From assembly GCF_022539665.2 (NCBI RefSeq), contig NC_081333.1, forward strand, positions 5,704,001 to 5,768,000: 64,000 nucleotides of DNA, given 5' to 3'. Each line of letters begins with the position of its first letter. The first letter of the stretch is position 1. Below the pieces are notes generated by a model. It was not told the origin of the DNA and did no database searches. It saw nothing but the letters and a program-made list of their open reading frames with translations. This DNA is from Daphnia carinata. Its lineage: Eukaryota. This document shows, one piece after another, positions 32,002 to 64,000 of this stretch. The position numbers were made by a program, and so were the translations under genes.

Positions 32002-32003
32002 AT

Positions 32004-32020: not shown

Positions 32021-32142
32021 CTCACACTTGTTGTCCAGTACAAAGTTTCTACCCGTACCTTATTTCAGTGATTGTGCTCTACACTTCCCCGACGAGTCTC
32101 CAACAACTCTACCAGACCAAGGAACACCATCAAATGTAAGCG

Positions 32143-33566: not shown

Positions 33567-34204
33567 GATTGGCGGTGAAATAGGACTGAAACCAAATAGG
33601 ACTGGAGAAATAGGACTGAAAATTTTCAGTCCTATTTCTACCGGAGAAATAGGACTGGGAGAAATAGGACTGACTTTTAAATACTTTTAGGACAGTCCTA
33701 TTTCTCCACGCCATCGGTCCTATTTCTCCTTGGCCTCAGTCCTATTTCTCCTTAGAAATAGTCCTATTTCTTTTATTTTGTTCCAATAGGAACGATATGC
33801 CTCCAATCCGGTAGGCAACATATTGCGTCAGAGCGTCGGCTTATATCCATTTCCCTTTGCAAAAAACCGATGGTGTTAACGCGTTACTTAAATGGTTCAC
33901 CAAACATTTATCTCTTATCATATTTTAATTATAATCGCTGGTGCACATGGAATATGTTGTATTTAATACAGTTCATTGAATAAAATACAATTAAAACTAA
34001 AACAGAATTGTTTATTAATTTTGTCTCAATTTATTAGGGTAATTAACTTTCCCAGTTGCACTCATGTTGTACTTTCTAATACTACTATCAAATAAGATAA
34101 TATAGCAAGTCATAACCAAATCGGTACCGCTCTAAGCTGCGACTCGAGTTGTCCTGAGTTCGATTCCATGTTGTGGCATATGGTCAGGGGTTTTTGATAA
34201 TATT
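33567..34204 (+). repeat. Left TIR: near-identical outer 364 bp with gaaataggact subrepeats, then a diverged inner part
   Basis: 33567-33930 is the reverse complement of 39094-39457 with few mismatches. It contains multiple (g)aaataggact motifs in both orientations. Weaker homology continues to ~34204. Confidence 0.9.
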
Positions 34205-34554
34205 TACGGTTAAGTTAAATATGAAAAGTGAAAGAATGTTAACGAATCTTCAACTGTATGAAAGCAAGTTCCTCACCAAGAGCAAGAAGAACTGTTGAGA
34301 TAAAAGAGATTGGATGAGAGAGGAGCTGGTAGAAGATGGTAGAAGGTGGTAGAAGATGGTAGATGGGGGAAAAAAAAATTTAACATTTTAACTATTCCTC
34401 AACTTCTTTACCAAGAGGAGGATTCTACCACGGAAGTGGATGACCCATAATGACATAGCATTACTCATCAAGTAATGTATTTCGCCAATGGCTTAAGTTG
34501 ATATTTGTAATGCCATTGAAATAAAACTAATTAAAATTTATTGGTGTTAAGGCC

Positions 34555-34845
34555 GAGGAAGTTGAAGATGATAGCCGCCGGCGAATAGAAAGAAGAGATT
34601 TCCAGAAGTAGAAGATTAACGGCTTAAGCAGCTTAAGACTTATGAGTGCTTAAGACGAGGAGGTTGATGATGGTTGCCGTCGGCGAAAAGAAAGAAGAGA
34701 TTTGCAGAAGTAGAAGATCAACGGCTTAAGCAGCTTAAGACTTATGGATGATTAAGACGAGGAGGTTGATGATGGTTGCCGTCGGCGAAAAGAAAGAAGA
34801 GACTTGAAGAAGTAGAAGATCAACGGCTTAAGCAGCTTAAGACTT
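34555..34845 (+). repeat. 102-bp tandem repeat, ~3 copies, upstream of the transposase
   Basis: The unit gaggaggttgatgatggttgccgtcggcgaaaagaaagaagag...ggcttaagcagcttaagac starts at 34555, 34657 and 34759. Confidence 0.9.
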
Positions 34846-35017
34846 AGTATTTCACCACAATTAATGCAACAGCAAGAAGTGCTTCCTTCCTATTTGCCGA
34901 GAGGTTTGGTTCCGCCCCTTTTCCGTTCCTCATGTCTGACAGACTATATATGGATACAATAAGGCCATACAACTTCAATAGTTCGTCTTAGACTTCGCTC
35001 TAGCACTTACCATTATC

Positions 35018-37864: not shown

Positions 37865-38556
37865 CGTTTGTTTGTTTGTACATGTATTTTATTTGACGAT
37901 TGTTTACATACTTTATAATAATTGACATGCTTTATAAATAAACTTTAATAATCTAAATTGACTTTTTTACTTTAATATAACATGTAATGTAATACATTTT
38001 GCTTGAATTATTAGGAGAAAACTTCTTGTACAACCGACGACTAATGTGCCTTTTGATGGTGGTTGGTTAGTGGCCACAATTCTCGAGAAGGTGATGGACC
38101 TAAAAAAAAATAAAATTGCAATAATTATACCAATATACTGCATATAACTATAAATGAATTTACCTAGCATGTTTAAATCCATTCGTCATCCAAAAATTCG
38201 TTGATCAGCTCCCTACGAAAAAATAAAAATAAAGTTAATGAAAAAGATAAAAAAAAAACTTAAGAAAAAAAAAAAAACGTTAAACCGGCCTGAGGAAACT
38301 GTAAAAAAAATTACCAGGCATAACCTATAAAGAAGAAAAAGAAGAAAAAAAATTATTAGTAAAACATAAGCAAGGTATAAGTAAGATATCTATCGAAATG
38401 TACTTACTGTTTGCGACTCTGAACTGCTGAACTGCTGCGACTGAACTGCTGCGACTTAGAAACAACCCGCAGCTGGACAGGAACTGGGCAGGAACTGGGC
38501 AGGCCGCTGGACACGAACAACAGGCAGGGAAAGCAGCCATATCCACAAACTCCATC

Positions 38557-38672
38557 CACAGCACATTCACAACACATTCACAAAACATTCACAGCACATT
38601 CACAGCACATTCACAGCACATTCGCAGCACATTCACAGCACATTCACACATTCACAGCACATTCACAGCACC
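38557..38672. repeat. 11-bp minisatellite (cagcacattca)n, ~10 copies
   Basis: Directly visible tandem copies with a few variants. Confidence 0.9.
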
Positions 38673-38819
38673 CAACACCTTCTAGAGCTAAATACTGACT
38701 GGCTGTAATGCTGAAACCGCATGTGGAAATTGGGAAGTCAGGAATACCATTATTTTCCATTTCAGTAGTATTACCCTAAACACCAGTAATTGTTTTCTTC
38801 CCAAAAATTGTTTCATAGA

Positions 38820-39457
38820 ATAATTATTAAAAACCTCAGATGATATGAAACCAGGGAGAATCGAACACAGGACTACCCGTGTCACAGCTTAGAGCACTAC
38901 CGATATGGTAAGACTTAGTTGGTAAGTTGGTGCTGCTAGTTGCAAGAGCAAGTACAAAATGAATGCAACTGGAAAACATTTTATGCACTAAAAAGTAAGA
39001 AAAATGTAATAAATATTTCTGGTGTAGCCGTTGTAGTATTTTACTAAATGAACTATATTAGACATAGTATGTTTCAGGGTACTCTGCAATTTAAATTAAA
39101 ATATGATAAGAGATAAATGTTTGGTGAACCATTTAAGTAACGCGTTAACACCATCGGTTTTTTGCAAAGGGAAATGGATATAAGCCGACGCTCTGACGCA
39201 ATATGTTGCCTACCGGATTGGAGGCATATCGTTCCTATAGGAACAAAATAAAATAAATAGGACTATTTCTAAGGAGAAATAGGACTGGTGGCAAGGAGAA
39301 ATAGGACTGCTGGCATGGAGAAATAGGACTGTCCTAAAAGTTTTAAAAAGACAGTCCTATTTCTCCCAGTCCTATTTCTCCGGTAGAAATAGGACTGGAA
39401 ATTTTCAGTCCTATTTCTCCAGTCCTATTTCGTTTCAGTCCTATTTCACCGGCTACC
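38820..39457 (-). repeat. Right TIR of the MULE
   Basis: Reverse complement of the left TIR. Near-identical over 39094-39457 and diverged over ~38820-39093. Confidence 0.9.
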
Positions 39458-39465
39458 GATACCGA

Positions 39466-40774
39466 TAGCCTCGATACATCCACAACCCAACCAATTGTAA
39501 AAGCATTAGGAGAATTATTTTCCAGAGAAGACAAAAAGTCAATTCCAATCTTCAAAGGGAAAAGTACTGATAAACTAATAACAGAATGGCTGAAGGACGC
39601 CGAACATGTCGCACGCAACAACGACTGGGACGACAACCAAAAAATACGATTCTTCTCTGACAGACTAAAAGGCGATGCCTTAGAATGGCATGGAAACTAC
39701 GTGGAAGAGCAAGGTGACGAATTAAGTTATGACGAATGGAAAACTGCCATTATTGCAAGATTCCAGGATGCATACGACTTAGCAGCACAAAGAAAAAAGT
39801 TATCCACGCTAAAACAAAAACCTGAAGAGAAATGCAAAGCCTTTATTTCAAGAATCAACAGTCTCTACGAGTCCATTGAAGGCAAAGAAGAAAAATCTGA
39901 CCAAAACCAGACAATAGTTGAAGGTCGACTCATAAACACAGTCAAAAGAATGAGAGATTATACCAAAATCAAAATTCTGATGCAAGGCATTTTACCAAAA
40001 TTCAGAGCAGAGCTCTATTTTCGAATGCCCGAAGACCCTGAAGATTTTGATCAGCTTTGTAAACAACTAATCATATCCAAAGGTATCCTATATAGCAAGG
40101 AAACTGCAGAAGACAAGGAAATAAATGCGGTGATAGCAGGGATAACGCATCACGAGAAACAACAAGACAACGAACTTTCACAACAAAAGACAGAAATTGA
40201 ATTCTTAAAACAAAAAATTCAGGAACTGGAAAAAACTAATAAAAATCGTAACTTGGCACAGGATACTGATATAACCATAGCAGCAGCAGATCGATACGAA
40301 CCAAGATCCTCACGATCAAGTGATCGGTACTCCAGATCACAAAATCCGCGAGTTCGATTCGACGACAGATCAAATAGCAGAGGCCCCAGTAGTGACCGAA
40401 ATTTTGGCCGTAGCAGGGAGAACAGCCCATACCGCAACAATTATACTTCACCACGAAGACAAGGTACTTCCCCAGGGTATCGACAACCCAATTACCCTTC
40501 ATATCAACAAACACAGAGACCTTCATACAACAACGGACCGACCCATTACAATCAACCACACTTTCAACCGAGCAACAATCAACAAGCGTATCACCAAAAC
40601 CCAGGTTATCCACGACAATACCCGCAGCAACGACAAAACCAGCCGAACACCCACGACACTCTTGGAAATAAGATTATTATCTGTTACAAGTGCAATAAAA
40701 AAGGACACATTGCACGAGAATGTTGGACAGATATGGCACGTATCAACATCCCGAACCACCGTCCAATGCAGTAA
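39466..40774 (+). pseudogene. gag: gag, C-terminal part (capsid-like region and CCHC zinc knuckle)
   Basis: Open frame resuming after the TSD: IPIFKGK..WLKDAEHVA..W..KIRFFSDRLKGDALEW, ending with CYKCNKKGHIAREC. Confidence 0.88.
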
Positions 40775-42700
40775 ACACAATATCCCTACCAACCAACCCT
40801 TTAACACAAAATTTAGAAATAGCGATACCCAAACTAATCCGTATACCAGTAAGAATTTTTGGACAAGAAATTAACGCTTTAGTAGACACAGGAGCAGCAG
40901 CCAGTTTAGTATCAGATAAAGTATTTTTTAAGAAGAGGGAAAAACTCGAAGAAATTAAAAATACCCCTCGCCGATATTTAGGACAGTATCAGGAGAAATC
41001 TTAAGCTCAAAAGGAAAATTTAGATTTTCAATTGTCATTAACAGCAGTCACGTCATTAAGCATGATTTCTTTATCATGGAAAACTTAAATGAAAATTGTA
41101 TCTTAGGATTAGACTTCTTATCAAGCAACAATGTAAAAATTAATACCAAAAACAGGCAGATCAATTACGATCATTCCGGAGTAGAACATAACTTTAGAAA
41201 TAACATACTCCCAATATACAGCATAACATTTGGCAAAGTCGGCATTCATATTCCACTCCGCCCAAACCGTTCATCAGACTATAACGACAACCACGATTTA
41301 ACAGAAGCAGATTATCGCAACCTAGAATCTTTCTCCCAATCAGAAACTGACAAGAAAAATAAGCGAATTGGACAAACCCAAGAAAGTACAGCGACTAACA
41401 TTTCCGACGAGATTCAAATTAAAATTGGAAATCTATTGAAAAAACACGAAACCCTATTTGCTGAAAGAGAATCAGATTTAGGTCTAGCAACTGATGTAAA
41501 ACACTCCATTAACATAGGATACAACGCCCCAATTACACAACGATTGCGCAGAACACCAGAAGCATTAAAACTAATTGTCAAGACAAAAATAGATGTAATG
41601 ATGAGTAACAATATCATTAGAGAAAGTCACAGCCCATTTGCAGCAGCAATTGTAATGGTCCCCAAAAAAGATGGAGAAATGCGTATGTGTATTGACTATA
41701 GGGCACTTAACAAAATAACGGTAAAAGACAAATACCCATTACCAAGAATCGACGACACCATTGATGCATTGAGCGGATCGGTTTACTTCTCAACATTGGA
41801 CTTAGTGAGTGGCTACTGGCAGATCGAGATAGAAGAAAGCGACAAACACAAAACCGCCTTCATCTGTGAACTTGGACAATACGAATTTAATAAAATGCCA
41901 TTTGGACTAACAAATGCACCAAGCACTTTTCAACGAGCAATGAACAACATATTGAAATCAGTATTGTTCAGGTTCGCATTGGTTTACCTGGATGACATCA
42001 TAGTGTTCAGTAATAATATTGCTGAACATGTGATACATCTAGAAGCAGTGTTTAAACTTCTTAAAGACGCAGGACTAAAATTAAAAAGAAAGAAATGCGA
42101 ATTTTTCAAAGAAGAATTAGACTATTTAGGATATATTGTTTCGAAAAAAGGAATAACACCGAGTACAAAAAAGTTAGAAGCAATCATCAAATACCCAGCT
42201 CCCAAAAACGTGAAAGAATTGAGCTCATTTCTAGGTTTGGCTAGCTATTACAGAAAGTTCATCAGGGCTTTTGCTGATAAAGCCCACCCACTGACAGCGC
42301 TAACGAGAAAATCAGCCGAGTGGAAATGGGGAGAGGAACAAAGGGACGCCTTTGATTGTATCAAGAACTGTCTCATAACTAGACCTATCCTAGGGTATCC
42401 AGATTTCACGCGCGAATTTCTCATCTACACAGATGCCTCAGGATACGGTATAGGAGCAGTCTTGGCTCAGATGCAAACTCTACCTCAATCAGCGGATTCA
42501 GCGGAGTCCGACGTACAGGAACCCCGTGAATCAGACGGCGCGGAAGTCGTCATAGCGTATAGCTCTAAACATCTGAACGACCGCGAAGCCAAGTGGTCAA
42601 CCACAGAGAAAGAGGCTTACGCCATCATCCACGCAATTGACGTATTTAGAACGTATCTATACGGACGCAGATTCACCGTATTTACAGACCATAGACCTTT
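40720..42700 (+). CDS. pol: pol of element 1 (protease, RT, RNase H), partial; 1-nt frameshift near 40958-40968
   Basis: ALVDTGA protease; RMCIDYRALN, MPFGL and YLDD for RT; YTDASG..TDHRP for RNase H. The protease frame (40720-41004) joins the 41076 frame through a homopolymer indel. Confidence 0.92.
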
Positions 42701-42800
42701 NNNNNNNNNNNNNNNNNNNNNNNNNNNNNNNNNNNNNNNNNNNNNNNNNNNNNNNNNNNNNNNNNNNNNNNNNNNNNNNNNNNNNNNNNNNNNNNNNNNN
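42701..42800. other. Assembly gap (100 N, true size unknown)
   Basis: Run of exactly 100 N. Confidence 1.
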
Positions 42801-51800: not shown

Positions 51801-52607
51801 CACGTATATTTGATGCTGTTTGAATGTAGATATTGAAACTCACTGTATCACACTATATTCACATTGAATACACGTATATTTGATGCTGTTTGAATGTAGA
51901 TATTGAAACTCACTGTATCACACTATATTCACATTGAATACACGTATATTTGATGCTGTTTGAATGTAGATATTGAAACTGCTTCTATAACACTATATTC
52001 ACATTGAATACACGTATATTTGATGCTGTTTGAATGTAGATATTGAAACTGATTCTATAACACTATATTCACATTGAATACACGTATATTTGATGCTGTT
52101 TGAATGTAGATATTGAAACTCACTGTATCACACTATATTCACATTGAATACACGTATATTTGATGCTGTTTGAATGTAGATATTGAAACTGATTCTATAA
52201 CACTATATTCACATTGAATACACGTATATTTGATGCTGTTTGAATGTAGATATTGAAACTCACTGTATCACACTATATTCACATTGAATACACGTATATT
52301 TGATGCTGTTTGAATGTAGATATTGAAACTCACTGTATCACACTATATTCACATTGAATACACGTATATTTGATGCTGTTTGAATGTAGATATTGAAACT
52401 CACTGTATCACACTATATTCACATTGAATACACGTATATTTGATGCTGTTTGAATGTAGATAATGAAACTGCTTCTATAACAGTATATTCACATTGAATA
52501 CACGTATATTTGATGCTGTTTGAATGTAGATATTGAAACTGTTTGTATCACACTATATTCACATTGAATACACGTATATTTGATGCTGTTTGAATGTAGA
52601 TATTGAC
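42801..52607 (+). repeat. 70-bp satellite array, block 2 (~140 monomers)
   Basis: Same monomer and orientation as block 1. The gatactg/tcatg B-variant is scarce and a taatgaaactgcttct variant is present. Confidence 0.99.
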
Positions 52608-52982
52608 ACTACACGAAATAAGATAGATAAGGATGTTTCGAGACTTACTGTGAGCTCATGGTGGAGAGCGGCGACTGGCGGAGAAATGACGCAACACAAT
52701 TCAGTAAGTGACACAGGGTTTGTATTATAGCACTTTTGGACACGGAGCACCGTACACTTCGACTCACAAAAACAGACTGCTTTACAATTTTTCGGGGAGA
52801 ACATTTTATAGGTAAGTAGAAGGTCGAATTGGTTAGCACTTCGGGAAGGGCAGGGGATTTTGCCGTGTAAATTTAACACAGAGGTGCGAAAAGGGGCATG
52901 GGGCGGTTCTCGGAGGTTAAAGTCCTCCGTGGGAACCAAGGTCGGTGTGGGGAGAAGCGGTGCCGGTGGGTCGTCCCTTACA
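52608..52982 (-). repeat. 3' LTR of element 2, lacking its outermost ~28 bp
   Basis: Matches 63249-63623. The terminal segment equivalent to 63221-63248 is absent. Confidence 0.95.
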
Positions 52983-53015
52983 TACCTTACGGCCGTGGAA
53001 GATTGCGTCCCGCAA

Positions 53016-53675
53016 TCACGATGTAAGGATGAGGGGTAGAGTTGACTCGCTATCGTAGGAGTGATATCCAGATGTCTCGCTTGGAGAGTCGGATATGTTG
53101 ATTACCTCTACTTCGTTCTGCACCCAATTTTCTTCTTGCGCTGGACCAGGTGATACTGGTGGAGCCAAAAAGGTTTCGTCGAGGGGTTCTTCGGGCCTAT
53201 AGTCTCCGAACGTCGGCGTGGAGCACCTCGGGAAGTGGTCGCCGTAGTCGTACCCCTTCTGAAACCCAGTGTTTACGTAGTACTGGGTGGGGATATATTC
53301 TCGGGTGCGGGGGTCGTCGTCGTCGGTGACAAAATGGCCTGGCGTAACTCCGACGCGCCATGATGCCCGGTCTTCTTCTGCTCCGTCTAATTTCCTTTTC
53401 TTGCTGCGGTGTCGCTCGATGCTGTCGTTCAACGCCGCCGTATGCAGGCTCCTGCCGGCAATGGGAAGCTGATTGTCGTCATCTTCGGCCCCTACGCCAT
53501 GGTAACGGATAAAGACGAAGCTTGCGCCCGAACAGTTCCTGAAATTTTGAGGTGTACGCCAGCCGAGGGTGGTGCGGTGGTAGGAGACGGTTGGTTGGCT
53601 ATTTTCGACGGGTCGACACCAGGGGCAGATATCCTCCGTGTGGCTGTGGCCGCACACAGGGTAAGCGTTTGCCAT
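53016..53675 (-). CDS. ORF4: putative accessory protein (219 aa) with Cys/His cluster, basic NLS-like motif and acidic C-terminus
   Basis: ATG in good context (actATGG), ~12 nt after an acceptor-like ccttcaacag. Contains CGHSH....CPWC, RHRSKKRKL and a D/E/S/P-rich tail. Same sense as gag-pol-env, ending 34 nt before the 3' LTR. No recognised homologue. Confidence 0.6.
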   Translation of the reverse strand: MANAYPVCGHSHTEDICPWCRPVENSQPTVSYHRTTLGWRTPQNFRNCSGASFVFIRYHGVGAEDDDNQLPIAGRSLHTAALNDSIERHRSKKRKLDGAEEDRASWRVGVTPGHFVTDDDDPRTREYIPTQYYVNTGFQKGYDYGDHFPRCSTPTFGDYRPEEPLDETFLAPPVSPGPAQEENWVQNEVEVINISDSPSETSGYHSYDSESTLPLILTS

Positions 53676-54443
53676 AGTTCTTCTTGCTGTTGAAGGTATA
53701 CTGATTCTGTTGACGTCGGGTTGTAGCTTAAATAATGCGACCGGTAGGGACGAGGAGGCTTATTTTTTTGGATTCGACCAATGGCGAAAAAGGTGGTGGG
53801 GAAAACGATGGCGACCAAGGTCAACGTAGGGGTTTGATCGTGGGAAAAAGGGTGAACGGTTGATCGTGGGAAAGAAAAACGGCGGAAGGTGAGTTGTAGG
53901 TTCGAGACTCAGTTTCGACAGAACGACATTACTAATTTGTAAGAAAACAAAATGACAAAACACATGAAATGGGAGTTGCATGACACTGTGATTTAAAACT
54001 GCTTTTTTGTTAGGGGGTGGTAACTCGAGTTTTGGTTACTGATCCTTTTGTTAGGTCGGTGTACTGTAGGCCGGAGTCGGTGTAGGTCGTAGTCGACCTG
54101 GGTGTAGGAGGTAGGTTTAGTCGTCAGGCAATAAGGGCAAGGATTACGCAAAACAAAAAAAAAATGCAGAATATACGAGAAATTCAAAAAAGTTATGCGA
54201 AAAATGTAAAAAAAATCCAAAAAAAAAAACCCACAAGAGAGGGCAAAATATAAGGAAAAAACCGAAAATATTCATAACAATCAATGGCAGGAGGAGTATT
54301 GGCTAACAACCGCATCTAGAGGGTTTAGTCATGGGCCAAAACATGGCATTTATGATAATCCGAAGGAAAGAAATATGAAAAGCATAATAAACGGCCTGTT
54401 TAGGTAAGTGGGATGGCATAGATTTTCGAAATTTGGGAGAGCG

Positions 54444-54806
54444 TCTCAGATAGCCTAATTGATTAAGGCCCCCAAAGTTAAGTGGGATCTGCAGACAGGA
54501 CTTGGGTTCGAATCCCACGTTGGAAATTCTAAGGCAGAGGCGAAGGGCCAATCTGGCGCGACCGGTAAAATGGTTGGGCGACCGTCAGACCACCTGGAGC
54601 TGAAAACCGAAAGTGGAGGGGAGATAATCGCCGCCGGAGCTAGCGCCCGGTGAAGGTGGAAAGATGTCTCCCTGAAGCGGCTGGGCCTGAACTAACGCTG
54701 AGGCAACCTCTCAGCGGGTAGCAAGTGGAGTGCTTAGGAAACCTCCAGCTAGCGTGGTGACGCTGGTGGCGCCACGAGCTCAAAACAGCCGACGATCAGT
54801 CCTTTT
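54444..54806 (+). ncRNA. Putative Pol III unit: tRNA-like head (54444-54526) plus structured RNA (~54540-54802), antisense to element 2
   Basis: A-box-like TAGCCTAATTGA (54451-54462) and B-box GGTTCGAATCC (54505-54515). D, anticodon, variable and T arms can be drawn. Many GC-rich helices follow, with G-U pairs on the plus strand. The first T4 run is at 54803-54806. Confidence 0.6.
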
Positions 54807-55026
54807 AGTCGTTTTCTTCCTTCATTTTAGAGTTGATCCGAGGTTTTGAGGAATGGGAAGTGGATTAAGGGTGTTTGGAAGCGGAAAAAAATAAAATATC
54901 TACTACCGCCACCTGCGGCCGGTTGGCACTACTGCAGTTAGCGCCACCCGCCCCGGTTTGGGTTATAGATTTGGTTTTTTGTAATGGGATTCGGGTGCTT
55001 GTTAGTTAGGAAATGTTTTGCATTTG

Positions 55027-56928
55027 CTATTTTTGTAGCAACGTCGCTGCTTGTCGGTGGAGTGTAGTTTTTCCTACATTGGGCATCCTATTTGTCGACC
55101 GGTATGGCTCTGAACGCTCGATTTGCTGCACTGTGGGTGGGACGTTAATGATATTTATTGGAGCTGATGGTGCGTTGTGGACGTTTGCGTGGCCCCCGGA
55201 CTCCAGATCGGTTTCTCTCGCGGCACTAGTCGCTAACCAATTAAAGGGGTTGCACGTCGGTAAACAGGACAAACACGGAATGAATCTCGCAAGAAGGGAT
55301 CCCAATCCACAAAATCGGAAGGCTAGTGCAATGACGATGCCTATGCCTGAAATGGATCCGAAATCTCTGAGCCAGTTTCCTACTCTGGCCATGAAGGAGA
55401 TGTGCGGAGCGTCGTAAGCGTTGAGTAGGACGTTACTGACCCGCCGGGTAAGCCTTATGTCGGTGGTGCTGTGTTCGTGTACTGTTGCTAGGAGATCTGC
55501 CATGGCCGCCGCCGGACTCAAAGGATTTTGTTTAAGCGCTGGGTGCAGCTGTAGGACTGAACCGAGGGTGTTATCTACTTCGTATGTCAGGGCGTTGATC
55601 AGCTTTGTGCCCCTTACTGCCACAGAAGGTACTATAGGGTCCCAGGTTCCATTTTTGTAGGTGTGGGCACGACCGTTGAAATTGACGAATCCGGAGTGCC
55701 AGTAGCATTCTCTATACTCGGTTAGTTCCCACCCTTCTATACTGATGGTGGAGTTCTCTACCTTTGGCTGAGGTCCGCAGTCCGTGATGACTGTTGCAAA
55801 GGTTACCTCACGGGCGGCGCACTGGAGTACGGCGACGTCTTTGCCCGTTGGTTGGAGTTTGGTGCATTTCGGCAAGCTCAAATAGCTGGCGGCTAGCCAA
55901 CCATTATATTGCGCCGTGGCGATGGCGTTTTTATGCGCTGTTTCCCGAATTTGACACTGGAGCGCCCGTATTTCTTCCGCCAGCCCATTCGACATTTCTA
56001 CAGCGACATCCCGGATGTATTGTGTGTGAGCTACTGCGTCTATCTCGGCGCGGAGCATTGTCGGGATGGTCCAGTTTTTGTTGTTCAATTTGGCCTCGTT
56101 CTTCGAATTGTTCAAGACGATCCAGGAGGCTACTACGCGGTCCATCCCTAACACGGGGCGGTAGTTTGAGTAGTTCGTCGCCGGTTTGCAAAGTCCAACA
56201 CTGACATTTTTCACCACGAAGTCTAATTGTTTACTGGAGTCGCGAATTCGGAAAATTTTCTGGTCGGATGTCTGATATAACAGGGCCACTCCTTCCTCTA
56301 CTTGTTTAGCTTGGCATTTTTGGGATTCCCGGAGCGAGTTGTCCCATACGATCGTCACGAGGTTGTGTACTAACGAACCGTTGGCGGAGGCGGGAATGTC
56401 GCCTAAGGGCGAGCTGATGACGCAGTCCGAACATTCGGTCTCCAAGATCACCTCTTCCAACCGGCAGTTGATCAGGTAGTCGCTGCTAGTTTGTAGCCAG
56501 CTTCCTTGTACATGTGGCGTTGTTTCCAGAGACCACTTGTTGGATCCCAGGTTGTTCATCGGCTGTCTGTCGCACAATCTTGAATCGCGTAATCTTCGAC
56601 ATTCGTCGGCGGTAACGTCCAAAGGCGTGCGGTGCTCTTGCACGTGGTCCCATTGAAAAAAGTCGCGATAGACTGTTTTACTCATTTTCCACATAACACA
56701 CGTATGTCCTAAAAATCTCTGCGTAACGGGTAGTGTAGAGTACACGTTGTAGTATACTCGAACGGGGGCTGCTGAGCTGATTTTGTGTTTGCAGCCTTCG
56801 TCGTCGAACTGGAGAAATCCCTTGTGGAGGGCGTTGTCACAATCGCAGACCGTAGCGTTGAATGCAAGGCTTCCACTGACCATCGTGGCTAAAACGAAGA
56901 TCTGTAAAACACTATAAGATGAAGACAC
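55027..56928 (-). CDS. env: Env-like type I membrane glycoprotein, probably a class III fusogen; likely spliced at 56901
   Basis: Signal-peptide-like IFVLATMVSGSLA, Cys-rich ectodomain with multiple N-x-S/T sites, TM segment ISGIGIVIALAFRFCGLG and a cytoplasmic tail. Lies in the third-ORF position after pol. The acceptor ttatagtgttttacag immediately precedes the signal segment. Confidence 0.85.
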   Translation of the reverse strand: MSSSYSVLQIFVLATMVSGSLAFNATVCDCDNALHKGFLQFDDEGCKHKISSAAPVRVYYNVYSTLPVTQRFLGHTCVMWKMSKTVYRDFFQWDHVQEHRTPLDVTADECRRLRDSRLCDRQPMNNLGSNKWSLETTPHVQGSWLQTSSDYLINCRLEEVILETECSDCVISSPLGDIPASANGSLVHNLVTIVWDNSLRESQKCQAKQVEEGVALLYQTSDQKIFRIRDSSKQLDFVVKNVSVGLCKPATNYSNYRPVLGMDRVVASWIVLNNSKNEAKLNNKNWTIPTMLRAEIDAVAHTQYIRDVAVEMSNGLAEEIRALQCQIRETAHKNAIATAQYNGWLAASYLSLPKCTKLQPTGKDVAVLQCAAREVTFATVITDCGPQPKVENSTISIEGWELTEYRECYWHSGFVNFNGRAHTYKNGTWDPIVPSVAVRGTKLINALTYEVDNTLGSVLQLHPALKQNPLSPAAAMADLLATVHEHSTTDIRLTRRVSNVLLNAYDAPHISFMARVGNWLRDFGSISGIGIVIALAFRFCGLGSLLARFIPCLSCLPTCNPFNWLATSAARETDLESGGHANVHNAPSAPINIINVPPTVQQIERSEPYRSTNRMPNVGKTTLHRQAATLLQK

Positions 56929-56999
56929 ATGAGATATACGTTTTCTTTGGGAGGGTTAGTTGTTCGTCTGCTCCGCATGCTACATGTATATACACATTT

Positions 57000-59900
57000 T
57001 TATAATTTCCGGGGCGGCCGGATTTTAGTCCAGGGCCTTAATCCTTCCCGTCTTTCAGGTCGGGCTACTATTTCGTCTTCGCTCTGTTCTGGAGGGGTAA
57101 ATCCAAAAAATGGATTAGAGATGTTTATTTCGTTTTCTTCCGCTATTGGTTCTAGTGTGGACGGTTCCCATGAGTCAGGGATCAGGTCGTTTAGTCCTAG
57201 CGCTTCTTCTTCCGTTGATTCTTCGATCGTCCTATCTTCAGGATCTAGTCTGAGGTCTTCGAAAACAGGGCAAGGGTCGTCTCTCCAAATCATTGCTTCG
57301 AGTAAGGGTTTGATCCGGTTGGTATGGACTAGCTGCGGCGTTGCTACTGGGGTGGACTGGATCTCTACCGTGTGGTTGGAGTTGATTTTTGTTATCCGGT
57401 AAGGTCCTTGGTACCTCGGGTTTAATTTTCGACTAGTGCCGGGTTTGACTGTTCGGACGTCGAGTAGTACCTTGTCTCCGATCTGATACTCAAACGTCTT
57501 CACCCGTTTGTTGTACTGCTCTTTCTGCTGTATCCTAGCTTTTTCCAGATTTTCTTTGACGAGGTCGAATGCTTTGAAGAGTCGCTTCATGGTCTGGCTC
57601 TTGTAGTCCTGTGGGGTGATAGGATCGGTGGTGCCCGGCTGTAACCAACGGTCTATTGGCATTACTGCGTCTCGGCCGTGATTTAGGAAATACGGCGTTT
57701 CTTGCGTCGATGAGTTGACTGAGTGCCGGTAAGCAAAAGCTACATGCCCTAGCATTTCTTCCCAGTCTTCGTACCCTTCCGAAATGTATTTTCTCAGCAT
57801 TTCCACGACAGTTTTGTTGAACCGTTCTGTTAATCCATTCGTTTGGGGGTGATACGCTGTTGTGGTGCAGTGCTTGATGCGAAGCGCTTGGCACAGTTGC
57901 TGGAACAGTTCCGACGTAAAATTGGTTCCACGATCCGAGATGATTACTCTAGGAGGGCCGTGGTAATTTATGATTTTGTCGACTAGAGCTTTGCATGTAG
58001 TTACTGCCGTTTGATCTGGCAGCGCCACTACTTCGACCCATTTGGTAAAGTAATCCGTTATTACTAGTATGTGATTGTTTCCCTCGAAGGATGTGGGATT
58101 TATCGGGCCCAGGAAATCGAGTCCCAGGGTCTCGAAGGGGGCTTGTGCAGGTTGGAGCGAGTGCAGGAGCGCTCGGTTGTCGGATCGACGCTGTCGGGCG
58201 CACACCTCGCATTTCTGGCAGTATTCTTTGACGTCTTCGAGCATGCTGGGCCAATAGTACTTGTCGCGTAGCCTTTGGCAGGTCCTTCTGTAGGCGAGGT
58301 GGCCGGAAAGGGGTGAATCGTGGTATTCCTCTACTAGTGCTTGCCTGAGTGATGCTGGTACCACCACTTGTTTTTGCATGAATCGACGCCTTTTCTCGGA
58401 ATGTGGGATGTAGGACCTGCAGAGTACGCCGTCCTCGACGGTGAATAATTCGATTTCCTTGGCCCAACTTGGCATTCGTCGGTGATCTTCTTCCCATAGG
58501 AGCCCGTTTTCTAGGTATGATCTGATGTCTTGACATAACGGGTCGTCCTTCTGTTCCTGAACTATGCTGTCGACGTCTTTCGGCTGCACTTGGACGGCTG
58601 CCACCGGGATTCGTGATAGGAAATCGGCGTTTTCGTTTACTCGCCCGGGCCGGTACCGCACCGTATATTTGAGGTTGCCGAGCGTTATTGCCCATCTGCC
58701 TAATCTGCCCGTTTCGTCTTTAAAGGTCTGAAGCCATTGTAGTGGGCGGTGGTCACTCACTATTACGAACGGGTCGTCTTGTAAGTAATATTTAAATCGT
58801 TTGACTCCGAAAATCAGAGCAGCTGCTTCTTTCTCCACCGTAGAATATTTCCTTTCCCTGTCGTTTAGGTGTCTGCTGGCGTAGGCAATCGGCTGGTCTC
58901 TACCGTTGATTTCTTGGGAGAGGACGGCTCCTAGTCCGTAGTCGCTTGCGTCGGTGAAGATGATGAATTCTTTACTGAAATCCGGGTATGCCAACACGGG
59001 TTGGGTGATTAAACTTTTCCTTAGGGCTTCGAAGGATTTCTCCTCTTCTGGGCCCCACTTGATCTCGTCTTTTGGCTGTCCTTTTGTTCGTATTAGAAGT
59101 GGATGTGCGGTGGTTGAAAATTTCTCGATGAATCGCCGATAGTATGAGGCTAAACCCAGGAACGATTGTAGCTCTCTTACGGTGCTTGGGCGTTTGTAGT
59201 TGGCTATTGCTTCGATTTTGCTAGGATCAGGAGCGACCCCGTCCGCTGATATGATGTGTCCTAGGTAGTGTACTTTATCTTGTAGAAATTTGCACTTGGA
59301 CAGTTTAAGTTTTAGATTAGCTTTTTCTAGTAGTCCAAAGATTTCCTGTAGATGCGTGACGTGCTCTTCGATAGTAGTCGAGAAGACTATGATGTCGTCC
59401 AGGTAGACCAGACAACTCTTCCCGAGGACATTAGATAGTACGAAGTTCATTAATCGTTGGAACGTTCCTGGAGCGTTGGTTAGCCCAAATGCGAGTCTAT
59501 TCCATTCGTATAAATTATTGTCGACGATAAATGCGGTTTTTTCTTTGGATTGCTCCTCCATTTCGATTTGCCAATAGCCTGACGCGAGGTCGAGAGTGGA
59601 GAAAAGCTTTTGTCCTTGCAGCAAGTCTAGGACATCGTCGATTCTCGGTAGTGGGAATGAGTCCTTTTTCGTTATCGCGTTTAATTTCCTGTAGTCGATG
59701 CATAGTCTTTCTTCTCCTGATTTTTTCCGTACCAAAACGATGGGTGATGCCCATGGTGAAACAGAGGGTTTGATAATGTCGTTTTCGAGTAACTCCTGGA
59801 TTATTTTCTCCGCGACTTCTTTTTGCCGTGGAGAGTTTCGGTAGGGCCGAGAGCGGATGGGTCCTTTGCCTTGCGTGTCGATCGTGTGCTTGACTAGCCC

Positions 59901-60809
59901 TGTTTTCCCGAGGTCTTCTGTTTTGAAAGCAAATAGGTGGGTATGATTTGTAAGGAGTAATTGTAATGCTTGTTTTTCTCGGGCTGGGATGGCTGTTAGG
60001 GCTTTTTCGAAGATGGTGGAGTCGGCGGGGATGTTCTGGTAGGAGCAGGAGGCGATGGTGTGTTGTGCTTTTTCTTCGGTGAAGATTACTTTTCCTAGCA
60101 CTTGAAACGCGGGTATTGTGATTTGCTTGTTGGTCTCGTTGACGACGACTATGCGGAATAATCCATTTCCCTGTTTCTTCGAAACAAACGGGTCGAGTCG
60201 GATTCCCTTCGGGAGTTCCGGCGCAGATATAAATGAGCAGGCGATATTCGGGGGTAGCTTTCCGCCCCCCTGTTCGCTCTCCACCACTTGTGCTGTGTAT
60301 GGAGAGATGGTGATTTTTTGCGGGGTGATCATAACGGGTTCGTGAGGTGATTGATCGGGTCTTCTCATCCGATAAATCGTACACTCACTACCATCAAACA
60401 TGAATTTATGCCCGTAGAGAGCGTCTAATCCTAGTACGCAGCTCTCGGTGATACCGTCCACTACAATGAACGCTTGGGTTAAGAGATCGGGACATTCTTC
60501 GTCCACTAGTTGAAAAGTAAGGGTGACTGTGCCCTGAGTTTTTAAGCGCCTGTTATTTATATCATATAGCTCTACTGCAACCTCTGGAGAGAAATTTACG
60601 ATGTTTCCACAAAGTTTTGAATATAATTTGTTACTTAGCAGGCTTTTTCCTGCACCACTGTCGAAAAGAGCTTCAAAGATCACTTCGCCTGCTTTTAAGG
60701 TGATTCTGGGGGGTCCGACTTTACTTTGCACACTTTTTACGTACTGGCGGGGCTTAGGAGCGTTTCCACCGGTTGGCCCGTCACGTCTATCGGTGGTTAC
60801 TCGTTTAAC
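57000..60809 (-). CDS. pol: pol of element 2 (PR-RT-RNase H-integrase), expressed by -1 frameshift from gag
   Basis: ALFDSGA, RLCIDYRKLN, YLDD, TDASD..DHRPL, HHCC (HDSPLSGH..CQKCEVC), DDE (LDFLGP/SDRG/ERFN) and GPY motif. The frame is open from the slippery site at 60809-60803. No chromodomain recognised. Confidence 0.97.
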   Translation of the reverse strand, partial: VKRVTTDRRDGPTGGNAPKPRQYVKSVQSKVGPPRITLKAGEVIFEALFDSGAGKSLLSNKLYSKLCGNIVNFSPEVAVELYDINNRRLKTQGTVTLTFQLVDEECPDLLTQAFIVVDGITESCVLGLDALYGHKFMFDGSECTIYRMRRPDQSPHEPVMITPQKITISPYTAQVVESEQGGGKLPPNIACSFISAPELPKGIRLDPFVSKKQGNGLFRIVVVNETNKQITIPAFQVLGKVIFTEEKAQHTIASCSYQNIPADSTIFEKALTAIPAREKQALQLLLTNHTHLFAFKTEDLGKTGLVKHTIDTQGKGPIRSRPYRNSPRQKEVAEKIIQELLENDIIKPSVSPWASPIVLVRKKSGEERLCIDYRKLNAITKKDSFPLPRIDDVLDLLQGQKLFSTLDLASGYWQIEMEEQSKEKTAFIVDNNLYEWNRLAFGLTNAPGTFQRLMNFVLSNVLGKSCLVYLDDIIVFSTTIEEHVTHLQEIFGLLEKANLKLKLSKCKFLQDKVHYLGHIISADGVAPDPSKIEAIANYKRPSTVRELQSFLGLASYYRRFIEKFSTTAHPLLIRTKGQPKDEIKWGPEEEKSFEALRKSLITQPVLAYPDFSKEFIIFTDASDYGLGAVLSQEINGRDQPIAYASRHLNDRERKYSTVEKEAAALIFGVKRFKYYLQDDPFVIVSDHRPLQWLQTFKDETGRLGRWAITLGNLKYTVRYRPGRVNENADFLSRIPVAAVQVQPKDVDSIVQEQKDDPLCQDIRSYLENGLLWEEDHRRMPSWAKEIELFTVEDGVLCRSYIPHSEKRRRFMQKQVVVPASLRQALVEEYHDSPLSGHLAYRRTCQRLRDKYYWPSMLEDVKEYCQKCEVCARQRRSDNRALLHSLQPAQAPFETLGLDFLGPINPTSFEGNNHILVITDYFTKWVEVVALPDQTAVTTCKALVDKIINYHGPPRVIISDRGTNFTSELFQQLCQALRIKHCTTTAYHPQTNGLTERFNKTVVEMLRKYISEGYEDWEEMLGHVAFAYRHSVNSSTQETPYFLNHGRDAVMPIDRWLQPGTTDPITPQDYKSQTMKRLFKAFDLVKENLEKARIQQKEQYNKRVKTFEYQIGDKVLLDVRTVKPGTSRKLNPRYQGPYRITKINSNHTVEIQSTPVATPQLVHTNRIKPLLEAMIWRDDPCPVFEDLRLDPEDRTIEESTEEEALGLNDLIPDSWEPSTLEPIAEENEINISNPFFGFTPPEQSEDEIVARPERREGLRPWTKIRPPRKL
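60746..60809 (-). promoter_or_regulatory. -1 programmed ribosomal frameshift signal (G_UUA_AAC plus downstream stem or pseudoknot)
   Basis: Heptamer in gag codon phase just before the gag stop. A 6-nt spacer is followed by stem ccaccg/cggtgg, and loop gggc can pair with downstream gccc. pol is in the -1 frame. Confidence 0.75.
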
Positions 60810-63049
60810 TTCCCGTTGAAGGGATTACTTGCCGGTGGATTCCCCAGCGGTGGTGGCGGGTACTGCGGCGTCTGTTGCTGCGGTTGGCTTGGTGGCTGCT
60901 GGTGATATTGCCTTTGCTGCTGGTTTCCCGCCGTCGGGTGTTTCTGTCCTGGCGGGGGTTGGTTGGCTTTATTGTAGCAGGTGCTGCTGGTGTGTCCCCG
61001 GCGTCCGCAGTTGTCGCATGCAAGCCTCATTTTTGCTGCACAGTCCTTCGTGTCGTGACCGTACATGTTGTGGTAGGTGCAATATTTATCCGAGGTCCCA
61101 GGGTTACGTTGTTCGTTTCTTCGTCCTTCCTGATTTTTTGCGAGTTCTGCTCTTATTGCTTCTCTAATGAGGGATGTGATGTCGTCCTTTTTTACTGGCG
61201 GAGGTGGTACGTCGTAGTTCCCTGGATGGCCCCTGGAGTTAGCGAGTTCTAGCGCTAGGTCGTGCCGCTCTGCTGCTTCGATCATCTGGTCGAAGGAGGG
61301 GAAGTCCAGACAAAATAGTCGGTCGTGTAGTTGAGGCGCCAGCCCGTTCATGAATTTGTCCCTGCTTAACTGTTCGATGACTTCCTGGCTTACGTTGGGA
61401 TAGCCTCCTCTTGCTAGTTTTTGGATTCGATGGGCGAAGTTCCTTATTGATTCCGCGGGCTCTCTTTTGCAGCTGTTAAACGACGTTCTGTATTTGTGTT
61501 CCATGTTTTTCCCCATGAATCTTTCTTTCAGGGCTCGCTTGACGGTTTCGTAACAGGTGGCTTCGACTGGGTGGTCAAGCTGGAATTGTTCCATAAAGTC
61601 GCCTGCAGGTCCTACCAGTTTAGACCGTAGATATTTAATTTTTCTGGAATCTTCGAAGTCGCCGATATCCATTGTGTTTTCAAAGTGTCTGATCCACGAA
61701 TTGAGGTCCACATTATCTCCTGGCTTGGAGAATACACTAATTTGAGATAGTAGCCGCGTCGCTTGAATGTCGAGGTCGCTGATGGTCGACTGACGTTGAC
61801 CGTAGGATTGTTGTGATGGGTACGTGCTCATGGTCGTGTAACTGGGTTGAATTGCCATTGTCGACACAGTGGGGTAATCTTGCCGTGTAGGCGCAGCGAG
61901 ATCGTTTGTCTTATGTTGCCATGGAGTAGGGTTCGGCGTGGACGTATATTGTGGCGTGGGCGTGGGTTGGCTCGTACTGCCCCTTAGGGTCGCTACGAAG
62001 CTTGCTGCTGCTTCGGTTGTCCAGTTGTTCCTCGTTAGGGTTCGAAACACTGTGATTAGGTCGTCTTCCGAATCGTTTGTGTGATGGTTAGATTCCATTG
62101 TAGTGTGTGGTGTAGTTGTTACGAGTTGCGGGGTAAATGACACTCTTTTTGGGATTGGTGGTTGAGGGTGATCCGCGTTTGGTCTTGGCGTTTCTTTGTT
62201 CACAGCTCCTGAGTTTGAGATTTCTTCTTTCTTGTGTTTGTTGATGGCTCCGGTGTCTCGTTCTTGGTTTGTTACGAACGGGTTTCCTGTTGTTCTGACG
62301 GGATGTGGCGCGAAGGCTGAGTGTGGTCTGTCTGAACTAAAACTGGTTAACCCCGGATTTGATCGTGGAGCGGGGTCGCTTGGTGCCGGTTGAGTTATTG
62401 CGTTAGTCTGTGGTAGCCTTGGGTAGATGCTTTCCGATGGAGGTGTGAGAAGTGTTCGTAGGTTCAGAAAATAGAACAGCTCCCTCGGTGTGTAAAATTT
62501 GTCTCCGTGTGTTCGTATGAGTGCTCGGTATAGCTGTTGGGTCTTTTCGTATGGGAGTGTAGGTTGGCTGTTCAAAGCCCTGAGGAATTGCAGCTCTAAT
62601 AGAATTTCTTCTTCTGGTACGTCTTCGAGCTGTAGATCGGCGTATAGTTTATTGAAACTTGGTGTTCCGGTTAAGTCTACTTTGCACGCTGAGATAGTTT
62701 CTTGGAAAAATAGTTCAGTGGGGTCGGTTTGTGGTTGTTCGTGATCGTTTTCTAATATCGTTTGGGCTTTTCTTAGCACCTCCAAAGGGGGTGTTTCAAG
62801 TTCGTTGACCTCCAGGTGAGTGGTTTCTTTCTCCCTTATGTTGTTCCACTGACTTGCGAGGTTGTGTTCTTCTATTTCGTCGTCGGTGAGCAGATTGGTG
62901 TTGGGTGAGTCGGTTTCTGGAGTTTTTTGTGTGTGGATCGGTGAATAAATGACTTCACTGTTGTGCCCTTGGGCTTTTGGATTTCTTTTGGATGCTAGTC
63001 CCGTCACTATTTTACTTGCATTCCGAAATGCTTTAGTTAAATTATCCAT
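60797..63049 (-). CDS. gag: gag of element 2 (750 aa)
   Basis: Capsid-like region (WIRHFE..KIKYLRSKLVGPA..KREPAESIRNFAHRI..FMNGL) and two knuckles, CTYHNMYGHDTKDC and CDNCGRRGHTSSTC. Confidence 0.95.
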   Translation of the reverse strand: MDNLTKAFRNASKIVTGLASKRNPKAQGHNSEVIYSPIHTQKTPETDSPNTNLLTDDEIEEHNLASQWNNIREKETTHLEVNELETPPLEVLRKAQTILENDHEQPQTDPTELFFQETISACKVDLTGTPSFNKLYADLQLEDVPEEEILLELQFLRALNSQPTLPYEKTQQLYRALIRTHGDKFYTPRELFYFLNLRTLLTPPSESIYPRLPQTNAITQPAPSDPAPRSNPGLTSFSSDRPHSAFAPHPVRTTGNPFVTNQERDTGAINKHKKEEISNSGAVNKETPRPNADHPQPPIPKRVSFTPQLVTTTPHTTMESNHHTNDSEDDLITVFRTLTRNNWTTEAAASFVATLRGSTSQPTPTPQYTSTPNPTPWQHKTNDLAAPTRQDYPTVSTMAIQPSYTTMSTYPSQQSYGQRQSTISDLDIQATRLLSQISVFSKPGDNVDLNSWIRHFENTMDIGDFEDSRKIKYLRSKLVGPAGDFMEQFQLDHPVEATCYETVKRALKERFMGKNMEHKYRTSFNSCKREPAESIRNFAHRIQKLARGGYPNVSQEVIEQLSRDKFMNGLAPQLHDRLFCLDFPSFDQMIEAAERHDLALELANSRGHPGNYDVPPPPVKKDDITSLIREAIRAELAKNQEGRRNEQRNPGTSDKYCTYHNMYGHDTKDCAAKMRLACDNCGRRGHTSSTCYNKANQPPPGQKHPTAGNQQQRQYHQQPPSQPQQQTPQYPPPPLGNPPASNPFNGKLNE

Positions 63050-63199
63050 CTAATCTCACCCGGGCTATTTTTGCGGCGTTGATGCGGGCTTAACAAAAAT
63101 AATACCCAGAAATCTTGATAGATGGCGCTCAAGTGTCAATAAAAGTGCGAAAAAAAAAAAAAAACAAAAACAAGGATGTCTCTTGCGGAAGCGTGGTAT

Positions 63200-63218
63200 T
63201 CGAATTTCACTGTCACCA
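63200..63218 (-). promoter_or_regulatory. Primer-binding site (tggtgacagtg...), tRNA identity uncertain, possibly Leu
   Basis: TGG lies 2 nt downstream of the LTR ...cctcACA end. Only partial resemblance to tRNA-Leu 3' complements, from memory. Confidence 0.6.
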
Positions 63219-63220
63219 GA

Positions 63221-63623
63221 TGTGAGGTTTGTCCAGTGAGGGAGACAAACTACACGAAATAAGATAGATAAGGATGTTTCGAGACTTACTGTGAGCTCAT
63301 GGTGGAGAGCGGCGACTGGCGGAGAAATGACGCAACACAATTCAGTAAGTGACACAGGGTTTGTATTATAGCACTTTTGGACACGGAGCACCGTACACTT
63401 CGACTCACAAAAACAGACTGCTTTACAATTTTTCGGGGAGAACATTTTATAGGTAAGTAGAAGGTCGAATTGGTTAGCACTTCGGGAAGGGCAGGGGATT
63501 TTGCCGTGTAAATTTAACACAGAGGTGCGAAAAGGGGCATGGGGCGGTTCTCGGAGGTTAAAGTCCTCCGTGGGAACCAAGGTCGGTGTGGGGAGAAGCG
63601 GTGCCGGTGGGTCGTCCCTTACA
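63221..63623 (-). repeat. 5' LTR of element 2 (403 bp, TGTAAGG...CCTCACA)
   Basis: TG...CA termini with imperfect inverted ends, a TATA (cctataaaa) on the minus strand near 63445-63453, and a following PBS. Confidence 0.95.
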
Positions 63624-63989: not shown

Positions 63990-64000
63990 TGTAAGGAACG
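63990..64000 (+). mobile_element. Start of another LTR, probably related to element 2, in the opposite orientation
   Basis: The satellite stops abruptly. tgtaaggaacg matches the element-2 LTR start tgtaagggacg at 10/11. Only 11 nt are visible. Confidence 0.6.

What the first reader, a model, noticed from the sequence alone, without database searches (positions are those of the whole stretch)
54444..54815. Antisense tRNA-headed, highly structured Pol III-type RNA inside an env-bearing retrotransposon
Seen: between env and ORF4, on the strand opposite to gag-pol-env, is a long-variable-arm tRNA-like fold. It has D stem gcct/aggc, anticodon-like stem ccca/tggg with an irregular loop, variable stem tctg/cagg, T arm tggg-ttcgaat-ccca, a poor acceptor stem, and A and B boxes. 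About 260 nt of nested helices follow directly: tctggcg/cgtcaga (54552/54583), cgacc/ggttg, gggagata/tgtctccc (54619/54665), gccgg/ccggt, cgctgag/ctcagcg (54696/54710), ctagcgt/acgctgg (54749/54760), ggctg/cagcc (54679/54786) and ggagctga/tcagtcc (54596/54796). The linkers are A-rich. The non-Watson-Crick pairs are G-U on the plus strand and would be A-C on the genomic RNA, so the fold belongs to the antisense strand. The first T4 terminator comes only at 54803. Known parallels: adenovirus VA RNAs, EBV EBERs, MHV68 tRNA-miRNA TMERs and BLV Pol III miRNAs. Inference: this is an element-encoded ncRNA gene (RNAi/piRNA decoy, regulator or ribozyme) using a tRNA mimic as promoter and processing leader. 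I do not recognise the RNA family.
Basis: partly seen in the sequence, partly recalled or inferred. Interest (0 to 1): 0.9.

Follow-up and report, generated by a model that had tools for sequence, protein, structure and literature searches.

The report
tRNA-type promoter inside water-flea retrovirus
An intact, envelope-bearing retrotransposon, likely of a water flea, carries a worn tRNA-like promoter pointing against its genes that would make a 360-base RNA, but that RNA's predicted folding is no better than chance and no relative sharing it was found, so its role is open.

Summary
The setting is real: a complete Ty3/gypsy element on the minus strand (52608-63623) with identical LTRs, open gag, pol and gB-type env, and a real fourth gene (62% identical to a protein whose cluster representative is labelled Daphnia magna). 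The tRNA-like head at 54444-54526 (+) is also real: Rfam tRNA 18.6 bits, the only strict B box in 64 kb, best A+B+T-arm score in 178 kb (0 of 40 shuffles). Its acceptor stem and G19 are broken, so it reads as a promoter rather than a processing leader. The 'highly structured' body is not shown. All named stems are present, but folding energy is at shuffle level (z -0.3 to -1.2), the minus strand folds slightly better (z -2.2), and an unbiased G-U versus A-C count gives no plus-strand bias. No homologue was found; 9 of 9 relatives with a complete env-to-LTR interval lack it. No genome or RNA data were available, so covariation and expression are untested. Best reading: a captured tRNA-derived Pol III unit, likely transcribed as an antisense accessory RNA (0.36); a passenger SINE remnant is nearly as likely (0.30).

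The parts
54444..54526 (+). tRNA-derived head: D arm, anticodon-like arm with an 8-base loop, variable arm, T arm; broken acceptor stem; parent tRNA not assignable
   Evidence: Rfam RF00005 18.6 bits; ARAGORN only at 80% threshold, anticodon undetermined
54451..54462 (+). A box (G19 replaced by A)
54505..54515 (+). B box, exact; the only strict one in the window
54527..54802 (+). 276-base GC-rich body (60% GC); predicted helices, best supported 54618-54673, 54678-54791, 54696-54716, 54748-54767; structure not above shuffle level as a whole
   Evidence: 54615-54675 alone has z -2.56 on + (one of six sub-regions tried)
54803..54828 (+). three T4 runs, predicted Pol III terminator cluster
   Evidence: function inferred
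55027..56955 (-). env open frame (642 codons stop to stop), herpesvirus gB-type fold
57000..60824 (-). pol (RT, RNase H, integrase; Ty3/gypsy order), uninterrupted
60797..63049 (-). gag, uninterrupted
53016..53675 (-). ORF4, 219-residue accessory protein
   Evidence: 62% identical to P0047 and 64% to P0046 (Daphnia magna KZR96185.1); no Pfam hit
53700..53734 (-). TATA-like box and initiator just upstream of ORF4 (candidate internal Pol II promoter)
   Evidence: P0047's read-through keeps the three-residue words that these letters encode
52608..52982 (-). 3' LTR (about 28 bases shorter at its outer end than the 5' LTR's run up to the PBS)
63249..63623 (-). 5' LTR, 100% identical to the 3' LTR over 375 bases
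63208..63218 (-). primer-binding site, likely tRNA-Leu type

Best explanation
A tRNA-derived A-box/B-box unit sits antisense in the non-coding gap between env and ORF4 of an intact env-bearing Ty3/gypsy element, was likely captured by one lineage of the element, and is likely transcribed by RNA polymerase III into one unprocessed RNA of about 360 bases that would act as an accessory non-coding RNA. Shown: the boxes, their spacing, the T4 cluster, the intact host element, absence from distant relatives. Inferred: (1) TFIIIC binds the A and B boxes in each integrated copy and Pol III runs from about 54444 to 54803, independent of the LTR promoter, so the RNA could be made while the LTR is silent, as for the BLV Pol III cluster that lies between env and R3; (2) the head works at DNA level and is not cut off by RNase P or Z, because the acceptor stem and G19 are broken; (3) the unit was copied through reverse transcription as part of the element, since the LTRs are identical while the unit has no target-site duplication or tail; (4) the RNA, being fully complementary to the genomic and env RNAs in that stretch, most likely damps or times the element's own expression (antisense pairing or head-on Pol III/Pol II interference); a VA/EBER-like decoy role is the second option. 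Steps 1, 2 and 4 are untested.
For: Unique exact B box with correctly spaced A box and T arm; Rfam tRNA match over all 71 model positions; GC island bounded by the head and by three T4 runs; no direct repeat of 7 or more bases flanking the unit and no A-rich or simple-repeat tail; host element young and intact; the clade carries virus-like accessory cargo: ORF4 is conserved from its start codon, has relatives in L006, P0015 and P0029, and L010 has a different accessory frame behind a TATA/initiator. Precedent: BLV Pol III type-2 promoters between env and R3, with Pol II/Pol III interference suggested (PMC10236774, passages).
Against: No homologue in 34 env-related loci by blastn, nhmmer or two single-sequence covariance models; 9 of 9 loci with a complete env-to-LTR interval lack a T arm there, including L006, which has an ORF4-like frame. 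Body folding is at chance level on + and slightly better on -; no G-U strand bias. A broken acceptor and intact boxes are also what SINE heads look like (established knowledge), and 360 bases is within the SINE range of 100-700 (PMC10886601, Discussion). No expression data.
Confidence: 0.36

Rival explanations
1. Passenger SINE remnant: an ordinary tRNA-derived SINE inserted into the 3' non-coding region of an ancestor of this element and has been carried along without a role; tail and target-site duplication have eroded.
For: tRNA head with intact boxes and broken acceptor; SINE-range length; absent from all sampled relatives; body not more structured than shuffles; Kojima proposes SINE insertion as the origin of tRNA-derived parts of TRIM LTRs (PMC10886601).
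Against: No duplication of 7 or more bases, no tail; the unit ends in T runs, whereas SINEs usually end in A-rich or simple repeats (established knowledge); the B box is exact although tail and duplication would have had to erode; no second copy in the window (about two thirds of the window is satellite, so this is weak).
Confidence: 0.3
2. Sense-strand RNA element: the GC-rich body is a folded signal on the genomic (minus-strand) RNA for export, packaging or translation, placed after env as in simple retroviruses (CTE/RTE type, recalled), and the tRNA-like head is a separate remnant next to it.
For: The minus strand of 54594-54805 folds better than shuffles (z -2.21, 3 of 150; z -2.29, 3 of 200) with low ensemble diversity (7 of 150); A-C (that is, minus-strand G-U) mismatches outnumber G-T in the unbiased count.
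Against: The z-scores are modest, depend on the bounds chosen (z -1.25 for 54527-54802) and are uncorrected for several windows tried; relatives replicate with env-to-LTR intervals as short as about 10 bases (L007); it leaves the fit of head, body and T4 cluster into one Pol III unit to chance.
Confidence: 0.14
3. DNA-level barrier: the boxes are kept to bind TFIIIC/Pol III as a chromatin boundary that shields ORF4's promoter or the element from the surrounding satellite heterochromatin; the RNA is a by-product.
For: DNA-level features are exact while RNA-level tRNA features are broken; the element sits in a 70-base satellite array; ORF4 has its own candidate promoter about 710 bases away, pointing the other way. 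tRNA-gene and B-box barriers are established knowledge (recalled).
Against: Does not account for the 276-base GC island ending at a T4 cluster; the other LTR element in the same satellite (31800-42800) has no comparable boxes.
Confidence: 0.11
4. TMER-like precursor or ribozyme: RNase Z cuts behind the tRNA and frees a hairpin precursor or a self-cleaving RNA.
For: tRNA head followed by hairpins; one 56-base stem-loop (54618-54673, pair probabilities 0.8-0.98) is of pre-miRNA size.
Against: Broken acceptor stem and G19; the stem-loop has a 5-base one-sided bulge and starts 90 bases after the head; no hammerhead core, group I, group II domain V, twister, pistol or RNase P motif by recalled short patterns and no Rfam ribozyme at E up to 10.
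Confidence: 0.09

Closest known systems
BLV Pol III miRNA cluster (PMC10236774; passages read)
   Same: Type-2 Pol III promoter elements in the non-coding gap between env and accessory genes of a retrovirus; Pol III and Pol II units face each other.
   Different: BLV has five short pre-miRNA units with the B box behind the terminator; here one unit of about 360 bases with a whole tRNA-like head, antisense to the genomic RNA, in an invertebrate Ty3/gypsy element; no expression shown.
MHV68 TMERs (PMC4337559; passages read)
   Same: tRNA-like head with internal Pol III promoter followed by stem-loops and oligo-T.
   Different: TMER1 is about 200 bases, in a DNA virus, processed by RNase Z into miRNAs; here the acceptor stem is broken, the body is 276 bases and branched, and no processing is shown.
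Helenus / TRIMp3 (PMC10886601; abstract and Discussion read)
   Same: tRNA-derived sequence carried by an LTR retrotransposon, probably from a SINE insertion.
   Different: Helenus is non-autonomous, 311-1263 bases, with the tRNA part in the LTRs driving the element itself; here it is internal, antisense, in an 11-kb autonomous element and cannot drive genomic RNA.
tRNA-derived SINEs (SINE2)
   Same: Head with A and B boxes, unrelated body, length in range.
   Different: No tail, no target-site duplication found; dispersal not testable.
Branchiopod HSV/gB-type errantiviruses (PMC13524379; abstract, passages, section 'Additional files', supplement rows read)
   Same: The host element: Ty3/gypsy gag-pol-env, gB-type env, close in sequence to the listed Dpul_errantivirus_3 ectodomain (by eye).
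   Different: The main text has no occurrence of 'structured RNA', 'ribozyme', 'accessory' or 'Daphnia', and the 12 of 16 passages shown use 'tRNA' only for primer sites; no Pol III unit or ORF4 was seen there.

Membership tests
Functional tRNA gene | Cloverleaf reaching Rfam/ARAGORN thresholds, 7-pair acceptor, 7-base anticodon loop, G18-G19 | tested here: not met
   18.6 bits against 29; two acceptor mismatches; 8-base loop; G19 is A
Pol III type-2 unit | A box and B box in tRNA spacing, downstream T4 or longer | tested here: met
Pol III type-2 unit | Pol III occupancy and transcript | not testable with these tools
   no run could be listed
tRNA-derived SINE | tRNA-derived head with A and B boxes | tested here: met
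tRNA-derived SINE | Target-site duplication and A-rich or simple-repeat tail | tested here: not met
   longest flanking direct repeat 6 bases; no tandem repeat at the 3' end; erosion after an old insertion is not excluded
tRNA-derived SINE | Dispersed copies outside the LTR family | not testable with these tools
   no genome held; none in the window or 34 loci
TMER (tRNA-miRNA) | RNase Z-competent tRNA directly followed by pre-miRNA hairpins | tested here: inconclusive
   acceptor broken; one bulged 56-base hairpin 90 bases downstream; cleavage not testable
BLV-type Pol III miRNA genes | Short hairpin units with A box inside and B box after the terminator | tested here: not met
   B box lies about 300 bases before the first T4
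Helenus / TRIMp3 | Non-autonomous TRIM with the tRNA-derived part in both LTRs | tested here: not met
   autonomous element; LTRs hold no B box
Known ribozymes and Pol III RNAs (RNase P/MRP, SRP, 7SK, group I, hammerhead and others in Rfam 15) | Match to the family model or core motif | tested here: not met
   recalled short motifs; a diverged member below Rfam's reach is not excluded
Conserved structured RNA | Covariation among homologues | not testable with these tools
   no homologue obtained
gB-type errantivirus (host element) | Two LTRs, PBS, Ty3/gypsy gag-pol, downstream env with gB fold | tested here: met

The most novel reading that the evidence does not exclude
An invertebrate endogenous retrovirus encodes its own Pol III non-coding RNA gene, a 360-base tRNA-headed antisense RNA of a new family and the counterpart of VA/EBER/TMER/BLV RNAs, beside an independently promoted accessory protein; a second element of the clade (L010) may carry an unrelated tRNA-headed antisense unit, so such cassettes would be a recurring, so far undescribed accessory layer of errantiviruses that counters or tunes host small-RNA silencing.
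Probability: 0.25. Interest if true: 0.8.

Novelty: new variant of a known kind. Interest (0 to 1): 0.48.

Why it matters
Pol III non-coding RNAs are known from vertebrate DNA viruses and from BLV, and tRNA-derived pieces from the LTRs of non-autonomous TRIMs. My ten literature searches (open-access library only) listed no such unit inside an autonomous invertebrate env-bearing retrotransposon. If it is expressed and conserved, these elements have a virus-like accessory layer (own RNA gene, own accessory promoter) that works apart from the LTR, which bears on how they persist under piRNA control, in a genus that is easy to culture and sequence. If it is a passenger SINE, it is a minor annotation.

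Tried and rejected
No genome was held for the window and the loci's records could not be searched further. Sequencing runs: none was listed for 53000-55600; no RNA holder listed. Env, pol and ORF4 searches of viral contigs and an env search of bacterial genomes gave no relative. DNA patterns from the unit: 0 in viral contigs, 5 of 5 hits inside phage reading frames with no similarity beyond the pattern, 0 in bacterial genomes; blastn against phages, no match. blastn and nhmmer against 34 loci gave only poly-A noise. Two covariance models built from the single window copy found only that copy in 219,692 bases, and nothing above 5.2 bits in L010 4400-6700 without filters. ARAGORN 'tRNA-Asn' calls in L007 and L028 lie in the pol end and were rejected. 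A B box in L007 (2855, -) scores 25.9, equal to the best shuffle, and was set aside. Coding remnant: no frame spans the unit, and none of 61 proteins matches its translations better than E 0.005 in a tiny search. Self-priming: no 11-base match between the unit and the rest of the element on the pairing strand. ORF4: no hit in the word-based search or the Atlas; found by the exhaustive search. Earlier scan findings by sequence, place and three word sets: nothing on this element; one word set gave TRIM cases. I left the third homologue search unused.

Full report
Setting. The finding lies in a complete Ty3/gypsy element on the minus strand, inserted in a 70-base satellite. Its LTRs (52608-52982, 63249-63623) are identical over 375 bases. 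gag, pol and env are uninterrupted. Env has 45 relatives at E 0.001 or better; all that carry an organism name are Daphnia proteins, and the best near-full-length one is 58% identical. Its model matches herpesvirus glycoprotein B (Foldseek E 3e-15, TM about 0.3; mean pLDDT 66). The host is therefore likely a cladoceran whose own copy is not in the protein collection, and the element belongs with the branchiopod gB-type errantiviruses of PMC13524379. ORF4 is a real gene: 64% identical to a Daphnia magna fragment and 62% to its full-length cluster mate from the same start codon.

The head. Rfam's tRNA model aligns over 54444-54526 at 18.6 bits, below the family threshold of 29, with E 0.31 for 4227 families in 451 bases; by my arithmetic that is about 7e-5 for the tRNA family alone, or about 0.01 scaled to the window. 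It was not listed in a 6-kb scan, and ARAGORN reports it only at an 80% threshold among 10 calls. The B box is exact and is the only strict one in 64 kb. A simple score from recalled A-box and B-box consensus plus T-stem pairing ranks it first in 177,754 bases, with 0 of 40 shuffles reaching it. RNA-level tRNA features are damaged: two mismatches and two G-U pairs in the acceptor, a mismatch at the base of the T stem, A in place of G19, an 8-base anticodon loop. The parent tRNA cannot be assigned: the long extra arm suggests Leu or Ser, while six letters after the T arm match the tRNA-Lys(CUU) end listed in the paper's table. I read the head as a promoter, not as a substrate for RNase P or Z; that is an inference.

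The body. 54527-54802 is 60% GC against 40% and 44% on either side and ends at three T4 runs. The named helices exist, and several have pair probabilities above 0.8. But the fold is not better than dinucleotide shuffles: z -0.51 for the whole unit (30 of 100 shuffles as good), -0.3 and -1.24 for two body bounds on +, against -1.25 and -2.21 on - (-2.29). Numbers of long stems are at shuffle level. The G-U argument is circular when stems are picked on one strand; counted without that choice, G-T mismatches are 3 against 7 A-C, or 7 against 12, and 3 against 1 among local hairpins. So the strand of the fold is undecided. The T4-free run is unremarkable, 6th longest of 91 gaps. Many true RNAs also have modest z-scores (established knowledge), so this removes support and does not disprove structure. 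No Rfam family other than tRNA fits, and recalled ribozyme cores are absent; only a relaxed hammerhead pattern matches, on both strands.

Relatives. No genome was held. An env profile fetched 34 loci from metagenome contigs, at 27-59% env identity. None matches the unit by blastn, nhmmer or single-copy covariance models. Of 27 loci checked for the conserved pre-LTR hairpin, 9 reach it; their interval from the end of the env match is 8-984 bases against 2007 in the window, and none has a T arm there. L006 carries an ORF4-like frame without the unit. These relatives are distant (pol 56-71% where covered), so this shows that the unit is not clade-wide, not that it is unconserved in sisters; the closest sister known from protein (P0047) could not be read as DNA. 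One locus, L010, has a possible tRNA-headed antisense unit in another gap, unrelated in sequence and at chance level for its promoter: a lead only.

SINE test. No direct repeat of 7 or more bases flanks the unit and there is no tail. With identical LTRs, a SINE that landed after this copy integrated should still show both, so the unit was likely copied with the element. An older insertion, since eroded, remains possible, and dispersal could not be tested.

Mechanism. I commit, at 0.36, to a captured tRNA-derived Pol III unit that is transcribed from integrated copies into one antisense RNA of about 360 bases and serves the element, most likely by damping or timing its own sense transcription. 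The model is BLV, whose type-2 Pol III promoters lie between env and R3 and for which Pol II/Pol III interference has been suggested (PMC10236774). Rivals: passenger SINE remnant (0.30), sense-strand RNA signal beside an unrelated head (0.14), DNA-level TFIIIC barrier (0.11), TMER-like precursor or ribozyme (0.09). Nothing about expression or function is shown.

Literature. Seen: PMC13524379 (abstract, passages, one section, supplement rows), PMC10886601 (abstract, Discussion), PMC4337559, PMC10236774 and PMC2996953 (passages). VA RNA, EBER, CTE/RTE, tRNA barriers and SINE tails are recalled. Ten searches listed no report of such a unit in an autonomous invertebrate LTR element; the library misses most subscription papers and repeat databases, and the errantivirus supplements that I searched hold coordinates and proteins, not element DNA. 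Two earlier scan notes pointed me to the Helenus paper; I did not test their claims.

Verdict. Observation partly confirmed: promoter head real, structure claim unproven. Novelty: new variant of a known kind. Interest 0.48; 0.8 if an expressed, conserved RNA gene is shown (probability 0.25).

Noticed in passing
window 53004-53020 (- strand) and L001, L002, L004, L006, L007, L008, L009, L010, L019: A sense-strand hairpin with a 3-base loop lies about 20 bases before the 3' LTR in the window and in 9 of 27 loci checked. On 9 aligned rows, 5 of 8 pairs show changes on both sides, 0 of 500 shuffles reach this (relatedness not corrected). A purine tract is weak or missing between it and the LTR in several elements, the window's included, so it may mark the plus-strand priming site. 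This is better supported than the finding's own body structure.
   Followed up: partly
window 53016-53734 (- strand): ORF4 is a real accessory gene (62% identity to P0047 from its start codon; relatives in L006, P0015, P0029) with a TATA-like box and initiator in textbook spacing; the bare pattern is not enriched overall (9 found, 8.15 expected), but 2 of the 9 precede frames of over 100 codons. Function unknown; cysteine/histidine cluster at the start, basic patch, acidic end.
   Followed up: partly
L010 5575-5250 (- strand): Second possible tRNA-headed antisense unit, in the pol-env gap of a relative: 5-pair T arm, A-box-like word, 246-base body with z -2.32 (3 of 200), ending in T runs, with one internal T4. 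Promoter score is at chance level (0.275 expected), no Rfam tRNA hit, and no homology to the window unit.
   Followed up: partly
L010 4530-4908 (+): Accessory frame of 103 codons with two CxxC words behind a TATA box and initiator, between pol and env. L019 and L021 also hold frames of about 200 codons in that gap.
   Followed up: no
window 63195-63218 (- strand): Six bases after the primer site follows a word complementary to a tRNA T loop; similar words follow the primer sites of several relatives. Possible extended primer pairing.
   Followed up: no
window 52600-52612: The 3' LTR lacks the last 28 or so bases present in the 5' LTR and there is no clean target-site duplication; the end meets the satellite at a short shared word, which suggests a deletion or an assembly join.
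   Followed up: partly
window 31800-42800 and 63990-64000: A second gypsy element (gag 39347-40774, pol cut at 42803 by satellite, a 630-base inverted repeat at 33573-34201 / 38823-39451) and the start of a third LTR sit in the same 70-base satellite, so the array appears to attract insertions.
   Followed up: no
L008 about 9300-9480, L009, L010 8946-9184: A block between env and the pre-LTR hairpin is conserved between L008 and L010 (74% over 241 bases); part of it reads by eye as an antisense coding word.
   Followed up: no
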